A DNA stretch of 63,142 bases, counting the filler, from Hausera hauseri (lineage: Eukaryota), in assembly GCA_046269625.1 (NCBI GenBank). It is 10 parts of 10 records of this genome, joined end to end, with 100 filler letters (N's around TTAATTAATTAA, not from the genome) between each part and the next. Parts side by side here need not be neighbours in the genome. Positions count along the whole stretch, not along the records: positions 37,171 to 47,535 come from JBJURY010198858.1; 9 more parts are not named here. One strand, given 5' to 3'. The translations under genes and the position numbers were made by a program. Of the stretch, positions 40,737-46,612 are shown piece by piece. A model generated the notes under the pieces. That model saw nothing but the letters and a program-made list of their open reading frames with translations, made no database searches and was not told the DNA's origin. Position 1 is the first letter of the stretch. Each line of letters opens with the position of its first letter.

Positions 40737-40775
40737 AATTCTCCCCCTTTGAAAAGGATTCGGTCCTCCGGACCA
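40737..40775 (-). promoter_or_regulatory. Polypurine tract and start of a 3' LTR
   Basis: The minus strand reads GAGGAC..AAAGGGGGAGAAT-TGTTGGGG. The LTR TG starts at 40737 and extends leftward. Confidence 0.7.
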
Positions 40776-42895
40776 CTTTGGGTACTGACATGAACGAAAT
40801 TGAGATTGCTGGGTGTAATAATTAATGTAGCATCGTTTATTGGGTTCAACCAATGGCATAGCCGTTGCGTTCGGTTATCGTAGGTGTAGGAAAAATGGTA
40901 GTAGACTGATGGTTGGCGTCCATAAGGGCATGAAATACCATTGTGGAATGTTATTTGAAGTGCATCACTTGATTGTAAAAGTTGGAATCGGAGTTTGTTG
41001 AAACATGTCGCAAATAGGTGATGAGCACAATGGAATTGGACTACTGTTATTCGTTCGGTAAGGCAAATTGTACATTCATAGGTTGGGAGTTGATCATAGA
41101 AGAGGATTTGCAATGTTGCCCAAAGATCAGGTGGGGCTTAGTCGAAAATAAGATCGATTCGACATTTACTGAGTACGGGAAACTAATCTTGTTGTAATGA
41201 TAGTGGTAATGGTGGACTATGTGATATGGTTGGTGTAGAAGTTATTGAATATGCAGGTACTGGTAATTCAGATAATGGTCTAATGACTCTTTCAGGATGA
41301 TAACGTGGATGGGGAATTAAAGACGGTTGTTGTAGAAGGGACGTAATATTTGTGTGCTAAAGGTACTTGGTATATAGTTGGTGAGGGTCTGGTTATTGCG
41401 GATGGGCTAAAGCGATTGATGGGAAATTCGATTCTAACGGAAAATTGCTGTTCTATTCGGAAATATCTGGTTGGTAGTAATTGGGGAGTGGGGGTATTAG
41501 TAATAGTAAGTAAGGCTCGTCTAGGGTGATGGAAGTAAGAATATATGTATTCGGGGCAAAAGTAACATATACTGCAAATTAGATATCGGCAGTGGATTCT
41601 AACTGGTAGCAATGAGAACAGTATTCCGTATTACAGCAACTAAATTGGTAAGCTGTTTTATTGGGTTTATTACATAAACCACAAGTATGTAACTGAAAAT
41701 AAGGAATAGAAAAGGGTGTTGACACATTTCCTGTATAATAATATGTATCATGGTCAGTTGGTTCGATGACTTTGTGATTTTTATCATCGAGTGAGGATTG
41801 GTCGGCGTCAGATGGAAATGCGTCATGTTGAATACAGTATTTAATTTCAAATTTGCAAATTGGACAATATGGCATAGGGTTTGCCTGGGATCGGGCTCTA
41901 TCTATACAGTACGAACATAGCATATGCAAACAAGGTGTTAATCTGTACACAATATTGAGGATTGCTCTGCACTCCATACGTTCTGGGAAATTTGAAAATA
42001 ATTTGTATTAATTAAGATTTAATTCAATTATATTAAGATTTGTGCATTTATTAGCGTCTTTAATATACAATGAATTCGACAGGTAGTTATACAATTGTCT
42101 AAGTAAATGGGCTTGTACCAATGGTGAAGTGTATGTAGGGATGATGGTGGTATGTAATAATTTCTCGCTCAAACGAATTATAAGTACTGGGTTTGTAGAA
42201 AAATTTGTAGCGATGGGGTGATGGCTTAGATCGAAAAACCGTGGGTATATGTGGTAGGTAATCTTAATGAACATAAAAGTAAGTCAAGTTGTACTGTTAT
42301 AATAAATTTGTAGAAAATCTTCTTTGTCAATTTTATTCAGGGTTAGATCATCTGTTATACCTGTGAAGTGTGTTCTCCAATCTATAAATTTATGTCTAGG
42401 ATACATTTGCTGCTGTAATAGTATTTTGCCCTTATAGTCTAAAATGGCAGTATCAATGATGGTCTGGTTAATGGTCGTAGGGTTAGGTTGAATGGTGATA
42501 TAATTATAAGATAAGAAAGTGAATAGGGATTCTAAATCGGATAGGGATGAACTTTCTGATATTGAAGTATATTCCTTTATTGACGATAGCTGTTTGGGTA
42601 TTTGTATGGATTGGTTTTTGTTCTCATTGTGGGTATATAGAAGTCGTGGTTGAATTACTTCCACAGCAGATATCCTGTTATTCGAAGAAGAAATTGAGAA
42701 GGACAATAATTCCATAGGAGGAGTAGTAATAATCACACTAGAGTTTTCAAGTAGTTCATGATTAATGTCAAATATGGGATCAAGGTAATTGATATTGACT
42801 GTTAATTTGCCACTGGCGAGATGTATTGCTATAATATCGAACTTCTGTGGTTAGTCGGTAAAAATCAATGGGGATAACGAATTAGTAATGTCTGT
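40760..42895 (-). pseudogene. Inactive DEDDh exonuclease-like domain fused to three RING fingers
   Basis: ORFs at 42736, 42274 and 41977 share one frame. Exonuclease-like: IIDTAILDYKGKILLQQQMYPRHKFIDWRTHFTGI..FFDLSHH..LSEKLL..QAHLLRQLY. RING1 PCLHMLCSYC..CPIC; RING2 CGLC..SCC..YCSHC..CSIC (frameshift); RING3 CTIC..HCAHHL..TC..CPY. Confidence 0.75.
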
Positions 42896-43354
42896 AGGCG
42901 TTTGTTGTATACACATCTGTCTGAGATAGATTTGAAGTTTCTCAGACTTTAGGTTATTTGAAATAGTTGTTTGGTTGGAAAAAATTACTCAATTGGTCTA
43001 CACTTAGGTAGGACGCCAAAGCGTCGTAAAAAGGTCGTAAATCAGTGTAGTGTTCCATTTTTAGTCTATAATACAAAATATGAAGATAAAAGCTAGTTAC
43101 ACTAATCAAATATAAGTTACATAAAACAATAACACATTATATTACGTATGAATTGTATGCAGTAATCATAAGATGAGACATGTCAGTAGTCAATAAGAGT
43201 AAGAAGTGTCAATGATAAAATGACAGAAATAAACAGAAGTAGAGTTATACTAAAATATATACACACGGATACAGAGTTAGTAAGATGTCTAGTAAATGTT
43301 TATACTACTGTTTCTTGTCGCATAATAGCTAACAATCGCATACGTTTAAAGGAA

Positions 43355-44180
43355 TCAATCATTGGATCGTGAATCAGAATGTCGTTTATCGTCAGGTTTC
43401 GGTAATTGTGAGTTTTTTGGGCGAATATCTGGTCGTCGCATCAAGATAGGGACTGTCCCATAGGTTCGGGTTAAAAGCACAGTTATTAGGGGAGTCTCTT
43501 CGTATGTACCATGAGCGTAGTTTACATCAAGTAGGTAAGTCCCGTTTTTGAATTTCTTTTTCAGGAAAGTTTCCAATAAAAGGAATCGTTTTAATACTAT
43601 TGCATAATGTAGAGGGGTGCTGCGTAGTCGCGGTTGAAAAATAGGTTTGTATACTTTATTGTCGTAGGCATAATCAAATATGAACGTCGCCTAATTATGT
43701 CTACCATGTCGTATAACAAGTAACAAAGGAATATCTCCATTAATATTAGGTATATGTAATGGTGCTTGTGATTGAATAAGCATAAGAATGAAGAAGTCGT
43801 GGCATTCACTCATGATAGCTACGTGAATGATAGTATTACCGTTTGTGTCTTGAAATTTCAGTGCTTCCGCTGCTTCGTCGCCTAACTGTGTTATTGCTTC
43901 TCTAGCTCTCTCTTCATTTTCGGATACCACTGCTAACATTAGTGGGGTGGTTCCAGCGTTGTTTACTATTGTATAGTCCAATGGGTCAGTTGGTTCATTA
44001 ATACATCCTAACATGTATCGTTCCGCGTTTGGTGAGGTCTGTTTTTCATGAAGTTCAGCATAGAGCTAATATTCTTCTTCTTTTATAATTGATAACCATT
44101 TTTCATCTCCATAAATTTCAAGATCATACTCTATATTAGTTAGGGCATTTGAAGTGGACTGTCGTCAGCGAACGTTGGTT
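43355..44180 (-). pseudogene. Ankyrin-repeat domain (about five repeats)
   Basis: GTTPLMLAV, QDTNGNTIIHVAI, NINGDIPLLLVIRHG, STPLHYAI and EETPLITVL in one frame with premature stops; intronless. Confidence 0.85.
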
Positions 44181-44186
44181 TATGGA

Positions 44187-46612
44187 TTAAAATGTTTCTT
44201 CTCTTATATTTATGTTTGTATACGCATATAGCGATAACCACTGTATAACAAATATAACACCAACGGGTATTACTATTACTACAAGTAAGAGTTTATTATA
44301 ATTTGTCTGAACTTGAAACATTTCGACTGGTGGTGTTTGGACATTCGTTGTGCCATTGTCTTTAGGGAAATTAGTAGACGTTTTAAAGATAAATCTTCCT
44401 CTTTTTATTATTTCATTGAATGAGAGTAATCTGAATGATGAACTTGGTCTTTTCTTCAATGTGGTTATTTCTAATAAAGCAACTGTTTTAGGTCTTTTCA
44501 TTGGATCATTGTAAAGTGATTGAATATGAACTAGATAGGGGTAACCGGATATCAGTTGTGCACATTGAACATAAGTAGTAGTAACTAGAAAACAAGCGTC
44601 TTTGGCATTTTCTAATGTTATTATATAATTAGGATAATGTAAACTAAACATTAGACGATCAGATCTTGTTTGAACATAAATGTATAAAAATCTAAATGAA
44701 ATTACTTCAGAAATTTTGCTTAAATTTATTGATATATGGTATGGTTTATAGAATCCTGGATAATGGATTGTGCTTATTCAAAAGTTATTTGAAGAAGATG
44801 ATTGTAATTGTAACGCGAGAAGCATTTGCTGATTATCATGTTTCGTACATGACATTAAAGATTGGAAACTTGCGGCCTTTAATGTATAAAAGTCTTCATT
44901 ATATTGCTTCAGTGCACAAGAGAGAAAGTAGCGGACTCTATTAGTTTGAAACTTAATCATTAAATCATTATTTTCTTTAAATATTTTTGATTTAATTTTT
45001 TTATTATCTTCGCCTCAGAAAATGCACGGGAGGATTGGTGCTTTTCTTTCAATTTCAGTTATTGTACGTCGCCATATACCATTAATAAAACAAAACATGG
45101 AAAATTACATATATGGGAAAATACGTATTCCAGATCGGATTTTACATAGATACAAGTTGATTGCTTTGGTTTGCCTACATAATAAATGTTATAGCTTTCA
45201 TCCACATATCGGTAGTTATTTGTATTATTCTTCCTTCCGGTATCTTTTTACTCCATCTTACATGTAAGCATTGTTTTCTATAATCGGTTTGATCTATAAT
45301 TATTTCTTCCTCCAAAAATAGTCTATATATTTCCGTTTGTTTTTTCTGTCCATAAGATTTATCCGTCAAAAATAATGTGGCCATCTTTTGTTCTGTAGGT
45401 ATTAATATTTTAAAATTTGGGGTTTTTGTGGGGAGTAATGTCCAACGATTTGATATATCTATTTGTACTGAATAAATGATTCCAGGTGTAACTTTACAAC
45501 AATCTCTTTTATAGGTAGATCTCGTCTTACATATTACTTTTAATTTTTTATAAAGTGATAATATTCCCCATTCTTCGCCAGTGTGTTTATTGCTGTTTGT
45601 TTTATACGGCTGTAAGGATTTAATAAATAAGCATTTAATTTTATAGTCATACTGGATGAAAAAATTTCCTGTATTTTCTTGAACATTCCATGGTTCCGTT
45701 TTTTGGTTTCTGTTTAGATATTTTATGAAGCTTGAAAATGAATTCGATTGTGTTGAATCTGATGAGTTTGTGATTGCCTTTTGCGAATCCGAAATTAGTT
45801 GTGGGAGTGAATCAGGAATGCAACATACTAACATACTTAATGGTAGTAATATTCGGTGGGGTTTTGAGTTATGATCAGTTCGTAGGGAATGATAGTTAGT
45901 GGGTTTTAAAATATGATGTCTTTTAACAATTTGCAGTGATGCTGATATTAGTATAATTGTGATGACACGAGCTGGTATAATAATTGTCAGTAATAACGGG
46001 TTAAAATCTCTATTCGCTAATAGTATGGATAATCGAGATTCTGCTGATTTTTTCCTTTGACCAGTCATTATTGATAAATTCCTATAAGTACATTCTTTGA
46101 GAGTAGTTATATGACATAATGCTACTTTCCTTCGTTTATGAGATAGACAGTAAAGTTGGTGTAATATCTGTACCAAGTATGAGTTGCAAGGTTTGAGATT
46201 TTTGCATTTAATTGATATATTGGTAATCGGAAAACAATTAACGATGTCGTCATCAATACAGACCGTATAATTTAGGTTGGGAAAATTAAATATTATATGT
46301 CTTTTATATGAATTGAAATATATAGAGGTTTAATTGAACTGTTTCGACATACTCAGGTGCTTGTATACTATCGTAAGATGTATATAGTGGTGACTTGGGA
46401 ATGTTAAAATTTGTGATACTTATCCAAGACACATTAGGACACGTGGATGGTAGTTGCAAAGTTAGTAATATTTGTTGACTGTTATCTGATACACAACTTT
46501 CTTCTGGTTCTAAGCCAAACTGTACCAGATTGTAATCCTCGTCACCTATCAATTTTGCTATAACAACAGCATCATATAATTTACTTATACGTGAATATCG
46601 ATAAAATTTCAT
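44187..46612 (-). pseudogene. Tandem membrane-protein modules (FN3-like ectodomain plus TM helix)
   Basis: Two paralogous modules, ~46612-45925 and 44960-44187, each with an L.P/SG..YLV.I FN3-like motif and a C-terminal hydrophobic helix. Stops and frameshifts are present. Confidence 0.55.

What the first reader, a model, noticed from the sequence alone, without database searches (positions are those of the whole stretch)
40737..46612. About 6-kb accessory cassette at an LTR element's 3' end: membrane proteins, ankyrin, dead exonuclease, three RINGs
Seen: same-strand, intronless, similarly decayed ORFs run from FN3-like/TM modules through ankyrin repeats to an exonuclease-like domain fused to three RING fingers, ending at a PPT-TG. 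Known: ankyrin and RING E3 proteins are typical host-modulation genes of large DNA viruses. Inference: a giant retroelement with a virus-like counter-defence payload; the pseudo-nuclease-RING fusion could be an RNA-recruited E3 ligase. No pol is visible on this contig.
Basis: partly seen in the sequence, partly recalled or inferred. Interest (0 to 1): 0.85.

Follow-up and report, generated by a model that had tools for sequence, protein, structure and literature searches.

The report
Retrotransposon tail with cupin–dead nuclease gene
A decayed, multicopy 6-kb run of separate genes (membrane proteins, ankyrin repeats, a cupin joined to a catalytically dead RNA-exonuclease fold, and a RING-finger protein) ends at an LTR-like terminus and is likely the accessory tail of an envelope-carrying gypsy retrotransposon, in which the dead nuclease would bind RNA ends rather than cut them.

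Summary
The cassette is real, lies on the minus strand, is multicopy and ends at a purine tract followed by a 326-bp TGTTG…CAACA LTR candidate (40412-40737). The headline claim fails: the exonuclease-like and RING genes are not fused. Three of three intact relatives stop where this copy stops, and the RING protein is a separate 425-aa product. The nuclease gene encodes a cupin plus an ISG20/REX4-like DEDDh fold (model pLDDT 82; Z 17.9) and lacks catalytic residues even in intact relatives. It belongs to a wider cupin-DEDDh family with active (11 of 22) and dead (10 of 22) members. The one distant member whose DNA I could read is the last gene of a gag-env-pol gypsy element (L001), and a second member in this window also precedes a purine tract, LTR, primer site and gag. 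So this is most likely the 3' accessory region of a Burro-like gag-env-pol element; pol, paired LTRs and giant size are not shown for this copy. Ankyrin- and ubiquitin-type cargo in such elements is published; I found no paper on the cupin-DEDDh family. New variant of a known kind.

The parts
40412..40737 (-). Candidate 3' LTR, 326 bp, 5-bp inverted ends (TGTTG…CAACA)
   Evidence: Sequence. Contig depth in run X1 is 11-35 in the five bins 38555-40284, 701 in 40285-40630 and 13044 in 40631-40976. The far end is not pinned by a second LTR: CAACA occurs about 1.4 times per kb in the flank and again 937 bases from the start.
40739..40750 (-). Polypurine tract, overlapped by the last codons of the RING gene
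   Evidence: One of 4 purine-tract+TGT sites in the window; P0004 ends at the matching residues.
40739..41977 (-). Stand-alone RING-finger gene (two adjacent N-terminal RING-like clusters, proline-rich linker, C-terminal C3HC4 RING); broken here by frame changes near 41600 and 41390 and by stops
   Evidence: 51% identical to intact P0004/P0006 over residues 1-423; frame map; Pfam RING families on P0004, best E 5e-6; 14 of 14 PDB matches at E<=1 are RING-domain proteins.
42008..43058 (-). Stand-alone cupin + catalytically dead ISG20/REX4-like DEDDh gene (about 350 codons); broken here by frame changes near 42985, 42320 and 42250 and a stop
   Evidence: 53-60% identical to intact P0001-P0003; model of P0001 pLDDT 81.7; residues 178-345 match human ISG20 (Z 17.9, rmsd 3.5, 159 aligned), residues 12-140 match cupins (best Z 9.4, rmsd 2.9, 97 aligned); catalytic columns.
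43355..44150 (-). Ankyrin-repeat gene (about 4-5 repeats), separate ORF, start region broken
   Evidence: Pfam Ank_2 E 3e-10, above cut-off; 37 PDB matches at E<=0.01, generic ankyrin proteins. No intact relative was searched for.
44187..45870 (-). Membrane module 2: predicted signal-like stretch, beta-rich ectodomain with two FN3-like strand motifs (45492, 44555), C-terminal membrane span at 44291; broken by frame changes near 45200-45060 and stops
   Evidence: Hydropathy, motif count. No family or homologue found.
45940..46612 (-). Membrane module 1: paralogue of the C-terminal half of module 2, with FN3-like motif (46197) and membrane span (45996); runs in frame into module 2; likely cut off at its 5' side
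   Evidence: Local alignments to 44187-45140 score z 7.8 and 10.9, 0 of 500 shuffles each; contig depth falls to 27 and 0 beyond 46512.
32927..34108 (+). Supporting, other contig: open 393-codon member of the same cupin-dead-DEDDh family, followed by a purine tract+TGT (34144), an LTR-like stretch, a primer-site-like 17-mer (34869) and a gag with zinc knuckle and ubiquitin-like domain
   Evidence: Aligns through both domains; BLASTP to the finding's gene E 2e-4.

Best explanation
This is a decayed, multicopy run of separate accessory genes ending at a purine tract and LTR-like terminus, likely the 3' region of a gag-env-pol (Burro-like) gypsy retrotransposon, whose dead ISG20-like protein would bind and shield RNA 3' ends while the RING and ankyrin proteins would steer host ubiquitination. 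Shown: minus-strand ORFs, many diverged copies, PPT and TG start, separate genes, cupin+DEDDh fold (predicted model, high confidence), loss of catalytic residues in intact relatives, and the position of two other family members at retroelement 3' ends. Inferred: that this copy's missing 5' part was gag-env-pol (about 0.7); that the membrane modules are type-I proteins cut from the end of the polyprotein by signal peptidase, as the signal+ectodomain+membrane-span tail after integrase in L001 suggests (about 0.5); that downstream genes are read from spliced or subgenomic messages, as PMC5408684 states for third ORFs (about 0.6); that the dead nuclease is an RNA-end-binding shield or decoy against host 3' exonucleases or small-RNA trimming, by analogy with Maelstrom and EXD1 (named as dead DEDD RNA binders in PMC5408684) (about 0.4); that the C-terminal RING is an active E3 (about 0.6).
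For: Multicopy: contig depth 164-13044 in all 18 bins from 40285 to 46512 against 11-35 in the five more AT-rich flank bins; listed pieces include near-exact ones (0, 0 and 1 differences over 270, 268, 812 bases) and 15-18% diverged ones in the nuclease, ankyrin and membrane genes. Intact colinear relatives without introns. L001 carries P0016 (E 5e-6 to the family profile) as last ORF, ending in a purine tract and TG, behind one 3184-aa ORF with zinc knuckles, class-III-type fusion glycoprotein (PF24664 E 1e-90), protease, RT, RNase H and integrase. In this window 2 of the 4 purine-tract+TGT sites lie just 3' of the two cupin-DEDDh cassettes, the gag after 32927-34108 is 72% identical to a gag that runs into an env start on another contig, and a third contig has env (PF24664 E 2e-20) followed by an aspartic-protease-like motif read by eye. 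The dead state is kept in 3 of 3 intact ORFs that are 66-67% identical to each other, which argues for a retained non-catalytic role.
Against: No pol, second LTR or target-site duplication on this contig (contig ends at 47535; no genome held). P0016 is a distant relative (19% identity to P0001) and genomic context was read for only 1 of the 18 distant family members aligned. L001 has no ankyrin or RING gene after pol, and its post-integrase tail shows no significant likeness to the membrane modules (best 11 of 300 shuffles). The LTR candidate resembles neither LTR end elsewhere in the window (29 and 143 of 300 shuffles). Run X1 may be the window's own source and its depth is no copy number. 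No functional data of any kind.
Confidence: 0.72

Rival explanations
1. Same element type, but the accessory genes serve the element's own replication or particle traffic (RNA packaging, 3'-end chaperoning, membrane anchoring, turnover of its own proteins), not counter-defence.
For: PMC5408684 proposes 3'-end processing of retrotransposon RNA for DEDDy third ORFs and found no clear copy-number benefit; 11 of 22 family members keep a full DEDDh set, as a processing enzyme would.
Against: A replication-essential enzyme would not be expected to lose catalysis in 10 of 22 members; ankyrin and RING cargo fits host modulation as proposed for Burro.
Confidence: 0.3
2. A non-autonomous LTR derivative or an LTR element of another order of genes (gag-pol without env, or BEL/Pao) that picked the cassette up by recombination from the shared accessory-gene pool.
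For: No coding core upstream; accessory ORFs are exchanged between unrelated retroelements (PMC5408684); env-less gypsy pol fragments also occur in this window.
Against: Both family members with readable context are tied to gag-env-pol-type sequence; intact relatives of two genes come from contigs of the same 19,467-base length, room for a full element.
Confidence: 0.18
3. One reading: a pseudo-nuclease-RING fusion acting as an RNA-recruited E3 ligase, which could now only arise by stop read-through or by a non-covalent pair.
For: In this copy the RING start lies in frame 30 bases after the nuclease stop.
Against: 3 of 3 intact nuclease relatives end at that stop and 3 of 3 RING cluster members begin at the next methionine; the stop is TAA, the least leaky codon (recalled); none of 25 further family hits carries a RING family.
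Confidence: 0.06
4. An endogenised piece of a large DNA virus, or retrocopied host genes, next to an unrelated solo LTR.
For: Ankyrin, RING and cupin genes are common in large DNA viruses (recalled; cupin and exonuclease matches among viral models); primase/HECT ORFs on other contigs hint at other mobile DNA.
Against: The RING gene runs into the purine tract in this copy and in P0004; host-type REX4 proteins lack the cupin and form their own clade (100/100); no relative in IMG/VR; depth is high continuously from LTR to 46.5 kb.
Confidence: 0.05

Closest known systems
Burro / GYPSM1 giant gypsy elements of planarians (PMC6431247, section 7 read)
   Same: gag-env-pol in one ORF with ubiquitin-like domain (seen in L001 and in this window's other contigs); ankyrin repeats and ubiquitin-system cargo; accessory ORFs; proposed host tinkering.
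   Different: Burro's ankyrin and other cargo lie in a 4,873-aa ORF1; here ankyrin and RING are separate 3' genes. Burro exceeds 30 kb with LTRs; the LTR candidate here is 326 bp. That section names no exonuclease, cupin or tandem membrane proteins for Burro (its two DEDD mentions concern Terminons).
GAG-ENV-POL errantiviruses of Nematoda, Bryozoa and Platyhelminthes (PMC13524379; abstract, first part of section 5 and passages read)
   Same: Gene order and class-III-type env of L001 and of fragments in this window.
   Different: The main text has 0 occurrences of exonuclease, DEDD, ankyrin, RING or accessory; supplements not read.
Bdelloid Juno/Vesta LTR elements with DEDDy ORF3 (PMC5408684; part 2 of 5 and passages read)
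   Same: A DnaQ-like exonuclease as a separate gene 3' of pol.
   Different: Those are RNase D-like DEDDy with intact catalytic residues; this is ISG20/REX4-like DEDDh, joined to a cupin and dead in this lineage ('DEDDh' occurs 0 times there).
ISG20 / ISG20L2 / REX4 exonucleases; dead DEDD proteins Maelstrom, EXD1, Exuperantia
   Same: Fold (ISG20 Z 17.9; Exuperantia Z 10.3); loss of catalysis as in the dead group.
   Different: N-terminal cupin; encoded by a retroelement; no function shown.
Mind bomb E3 ligase (ankyrins followed by three RINGs; architecture recalled)
   Same: Ankyrin gene upstream of a two-plus-one RING arrangement.
   Different: Two genes separated by the nuclease gene; MIB1 is only rank 7 of 37 generic ankyrin matches and is not among the 14 RING matches.

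Membership tests
Ty3/gypsy LTR retrotransposon (Metaviridae) | Polypurine tract followed by a TG-starting LTR with inverted ends | tested here: met
   40750-40739 tract, TGTTG at 40737, CAACA at 40412; far end supported only by the depth step.
Ty3/gypsy LTR retrotransposon (Metaviridae) | Dispersed multicopy family | tested here: met
   Depth and diverged contigs across the cassette in run X1; three distinct intact relatives.
Ty3/gypsy LTR retrotransposon (Metaviridae) | Paired LTRs with target-site duplication and primer site | not testable with these tools
Ty3/gypsy LTR retrotransposon (Metaviridae) | gag and PR-RT-RH-IN in cis | tested here: inconclusive
   None in the 923 bases upstream; present in cis for the distant family member in L001.
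GAG-ENV-POL errantiviruses | Class-III-type env between gag and protease | tested here: inconclusive
   Met for L001 and for fragments on two other contigs of the window; not observable for this copy.
Burro (strict sense) | Ankyrin and other cargo inside the giant ORF1 | tested here: not met
   Ankyrin is a separate ORF between the membrane and nuclease genes near the 3' LTR.
Burro (strict sense) | Over 30 kb in total with an internal part up to 25 kb (implying multi-kb LTRs) | tested here: inconclusive
   LTR candidate 326 bp argues against; total length unknown.
Burro (strict sense) | Dugesiid planarian host | not testable with these tools
   Host coded; not identified.
DEDDh exonuclease (ISG20/REX4) | DnaQ-like fold | tested here: met
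DEDDh exonuclease (ISG20/REX4) | Four acidic residues and the ExoIII histidine | tested here: not met
   None kept in P0001-P0003 or in the window copy.
Bdelloid DEDDy ORF3 | RNase D-like DEDDy type with intact site | tested here: not met
   Best folds are DEDDh; active relatives carry the histidine.
RING E3 ligase | C3HC4 ligand pattern | tested here: met
   Third RING of intact P0004 complete; first and second irregular. The window copy has lost ligands of the third.
RING E3 ligase | Ubiquitin-transfer activity | not testable with these tools
   Needs an assay.
Fibronectin type III membrane protein | FN3 domain by profile or fold | tested here: inconclusive
   No Pfam or PDB match; motif only; not folded (both folding jobs spent on the nuclease).
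Mind bomb | Ankyrins and three RINGs in one chain, with specific sequence kinship | tested here: not met
   Separate genes; no preferential match.

The most novel reading that the evidence does not exclude
Envelope-carrying gag-env-pol gypsy elements of invertebrates share an undescribed accessory gene family, a cupin fused to an ISG20-like exonuclease, that exists in active form and has been turned, perhaps more than once, into a dead RNA-end-binding decoy that blunts host 3' exonuclease or small-RNA defence; this lineage stacks it with a triple-RING ligase, an ankyrin adaptor and tandem surface decoys into a complex-virus-like anti-host operon.
Probability: 0.25. Interest if true: 0.85.

Novelty: new variant of a known kind. 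Interest (0 to 1): 0.58.

Why it matters
Accessory genes of invertebrate LTR elements are poorly catalogued and almost never tested. This gives a concrete, foldable family (cupin + ISG20-like nuclease) with matched active and dead members from many elements, so the question of whether retrotransposons encode counter-defence proteins can be tested with single purified proteins. It also extends Burro-type cargo to a layout of four or more separate 3' genes.

Tried and rejected
Fusion of nuclease and RING: rejected. Whole-genome search for paired LTRs: no genome held. The tool that returns the DNA around an exact protein was closed, so the 19,467-base contig(s) behind P0001 and P0004 could not be read. 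Scans for loci that found nothing: IMG/VR with P0001, P0004, A6, the L001 RT stretch and P0013 (5 of 5 blank), JGI metagenomes with A1, prokaryote genomes with P0007. Homologues of the membrane ORF 45175-46329: none at 211-672 aa or 673-2000 aa; shorter proteins and chains over 2000 aa were not searched, so a polyprotein tail would be missed. ESM Atlas: only sub-0.9 leads to viral glycoproteins for 45175-46329, no usable hit for 44187-44777. First fold with 3 sequences failed (pLDDT 38). Complex prediction of P0001 with P0004: no answer. Tree of the nuclease domain (26 rows): one versus several losses of catalysis unresolved, 13 of 23 inner branches open, long branches meet. No RNA holder listed. 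Rfam: 0 matches. Mind bomb origin: no specific support. Earlier findings of the scan: none. Rows dropped: of the 25 hits besides P0002, 7 were left out of alignment A3 (P0008, P0014, P0023, P0026, P0029 host-type REX4-like without cupin; P0028 bacterial-type; P0020 a repeat protein, spurious). Literature searches without a paper on this family: 0 papers; 1, listing only; 2, listing only; 0. Grohme 2018 was not held; the nematode gag-env-pol paper was seen only as a reference title; Repbase and the supplements of PMC13524379 were not seen and may already annotate such ORFs.

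
Full report
Setting. The window is a chain of 10 short contigs joined by N-linkers; the finding lies on the contig 37171-47535. No whole genome is held. The host is an unidentified AT-rich eukaryote, probably an invertebrate animal (inference from a short-intron PP2A-scaffold-like gene, and the element types).

The observation. All ORFs of the cassette are on the minus strand. The best frame of each segment has 2-10 stops against 52-53 per frame in the 615-codon flank, so these are decayed genes. 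In reading order: membrane module 1 (46612-45940), membrane module 2 (about 45870-44187), ankyrin gene (about 44150-43355; Pfam Ank_2 E 3e-10), nuclease-like gene (43058-42008), RING gene (41977-40739), purine tract (40750-40739) and a candidate LTR from TGTTG at 40737 to CAACA at 40412. The tract+TGT pattern occurs 4 times on both strands of the window. The far end of the LTR rests on a 5-base match, common by chance (1.4 per kb), plus the step in depth below. No Pfam family was found in 6 frames of the 923 bases upstream or 6 frames of the flank.

Copy number. One public run holds the stretch (it may be the window's source). Its contigs, laid at 80% likeness on the whole contig (21,954 records, which include two unrelated high-copy repeats at the contig ends), give depth 11-35 in the five bins 38555-40284, 164-13,044 in all 18 bins 40285-46512, then 27 and 0. 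Listed pieces include near-exact and 15-18% diverged ones in the nuclease, ankyrin and membrane genes. Depth is no copy number, but the AT-richer flank is an internal control: the whole cassette, not only the LTR, is a repeat family, and likeness ends near 46.5 kb, where this copy is likely truncated or interrupted.

The fusion is not real. A search with the read-through of 43039-41540 returned 4 proteins among 5,582 candidates: P0001-P0003 (349-357 aa) match only the nuclease part and all three end at the residue before the window's stop; P0004 (425 aa) and its two cluster mates start at the methionine at 41977, and the two full-length ones end at the purine tract. They are colinear with the window (51-60% identity), so there are no introns. 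The RING start is in frame 30 bases after a TAA stop; read-through cannot be excluded but has no support. None of the 25 further family hits carries a RING family. In P0004 Pfam finds two RING stretches; by eye the first lacks one cysteine, the middle cluster lacks the histidine and the third is a full C3HC4.

What the nuclease gene is. A profile of P0001-P0003 gave 4 PDB matches, all DEDDh nucleases, at weak E-values 0.03-0.18, and 26 hits among 1.84 billion representatives. Eighteen of the 25 new hits, the three close relatives and the window's ORF 32927-34108 were aligned; the longer ones share an N-terminal domain absent from host-type REX4 proteins. With this 22-row alignment P0001 folds at pLDDT 81.7 (a 3-row attempt failed): residues 178-345 match ISG20 (Z 17.9, rmsd 3.5, 159 aligned) and residues about 1-140 match cupin/double-stranded beta-helix domains (best Z 9.4, rmsd 2.9, 97 aligned). 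At the catalytic columns 11 of 22 rows keep the full DEDDh set, 1 is truncated, and 10 lack the first aspartate, among them P0001-P0003, which keep none; the window copy is the same. So catalysis was lost before this copy decayed. A tree of the domain separates cupin-less REX4-like proteins (100/100) but does not decide between one and several losses.

Link to a retroelement core. P0016, a dead member at E 5e-6, was found on one metagenome contig, L001. L001 holds a single 3,184-aa ORF with zinc knuckles, a ubiquitin-like match (UBX E 0.0015), a class-III-type fusion glycoprotein (PF24664 E 1e-90), protease, RT, RNase H and integrase, then a signal-like stretch, ectodomain and membrane span; P0016 follows and ends in a purine tract before TG. 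This is the gag-env-pol order described for planarian Burro (PMC6431247, section 7 read) and for nematode, bryozoan and flatworm errantiviruses (PMC13524379). In the window, the second family member (32927-34108) is followed by a purine tract, an LTR-like stretch, a primer-site-like sequence and a gag whose 72%-identical paralogue runs into an env start. Against this: context was read for 1 of 18 distant members, P0016 is only 19% identical to P0001, L001 lacks the ankyrin and RING genes, and the LTR candidate is unlike the other LTR ends in the window. Adding an L001-type core (about 8.5 kb) to the 5.9-kb cassette gives about 15 kb: long, not shown to be giant.

Membrane modules. Module 1 is a paralogue of the C-terminal half of module 2 (z 7.8 and 10.9, 0 of 500 shuffles each), each ending in a membrane span, and module 1 runs in frame into a signal-like stretch of module 2. 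FN3 is suggested only by a motif (3 seen, 0.09 expected; written after seeing the sequence). No family, structure or homologue was found. By analogy with the tail of the L001 polyprotein they would be type-I membrane proteins released by signal peptidase (inference; no sequence likeness to that tail).

How it most likely works. The element would replicate as a gypsy retrotransposon primed at the purine tract (established biology applied to an inferred core). The downstream genes would be read from spliced or subgenomic messages, as stated for third ORFs in PMC5408684 (part 2 of 5 and passages read). The dead ISG20-like domain would still grip RNA 3' ends, as the dead DEDD proteins Maelstrom and EXD1 bind RNA (named in that paper), shielding element RNA or competing with host exonucleases; the cupin has no canonical metal motif by eye and would serve for dimerisation or ligand binding. 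The RING protein would be an E3 through its third RING, with the ankyrin protein as a possible adaptor. All of these functions are inferred; none is tested.

Known versus new. Ankyrin, ubiquitin-system cargo and accessory ORFs in env-carrying gypsy elements are published (PMC6431247), as are active DEDDy third ORFs (PMC5408684; also cited in PMC6338049, passages read). This copy fails the strict Burro test (cargo as separate 3' genes, short LTR) and the DEDDy test. Searches and word counts in PMC13524379 found no description of a cupin-DEDDh accessory gene, dead or active, or of a stand-alone RING gene at the purine tract; Grohme 2018, the nematode paper, Repbase and supplements were not seen and could hold such annotation. 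Verdict: new variant of a known kind; interest 0.58, down from 0.85 because the fusion is an artefact and the cargo type has precedent, held up by the newly defined cupin-nuclease family with active and dead forms.

Noticed in passing
window 32838-37070 (+): Open cupin-dead-DEDDh ORF (32927-34108), purine tracts at 34144 and near 34660, LTR-like stretch, primer-site-like 17-mer at 34869 (looks like elongator tRNA-Met, recalled), then gag with zinc knuckle and ubiquitin-like domain: a tail-to-head junction of two elements.
   Followed up: partly
window 12312-16271 (-): Paralogue of that gag (72% DNA identity) with the same primer-site-like sequence, running into the start of a class-III-type env (PF24664 E 0.006).
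   Followed up: partly
window 20891-25302 (-): Decayed env (PF24664 E 2e-20) followed by an aspartic-protease-like motif read by eye: env before pol in this genome.
   Followed up: partly
window 1-3245 and 9549-12211 (+): Intronless ORFs with primase large-subunit (E 7e-9, 5e-7), HECT (E 9e-10) and symplekin-like (E 9e-6) matches, partly repeated at about 90% identity: an unexplained multicopy, possibly mobile or viral DNA carrying a HECT ligase and a primase subunit.
   Followed up: no
window 3250-7800 and 54841-58400 (+): Two copies (65-71% identical) of a decayed gypsy pol with RT, RNase H and integrase zinc finger.
   Followed up: no
window 28000-30600 (+): Host PP2A scaffold-like HEAT gene (PF22646 E 3e-8) with short introns read by eye and a 31-bp tandem repeat at 29410-29655.
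   Followed up: no
window 47636-54361: 6.7-kb degenerate TTCG satellite contig.
   Followed up: no
window 37171-38554 and 47205-47535: Very high contig depth in run X1 (3e4-5e5) with no Pfam family: other, unidentified high-copy repeats flanking the finding.
   Followed up: no
L001 380-9934 (+): After integrase the polyprotein goes on with a signal-like stretch, about 270 residues of no known family and a membrane span; gag starts directly behind a primer-site-like sequence near 363 (looks like tRNA-Trp, recalled).
   Followed up: partly
P0008: A 733-aa protein with what look like four tandem REX4-like domains, some without catalytic residues by eye (Pfam counts 2 stretches).
   Followed up: no
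whole window: The window is 10 short contigs joined by N-linkers, so neighbours across linkers are not genomic neighbours.
   Followed up: yes
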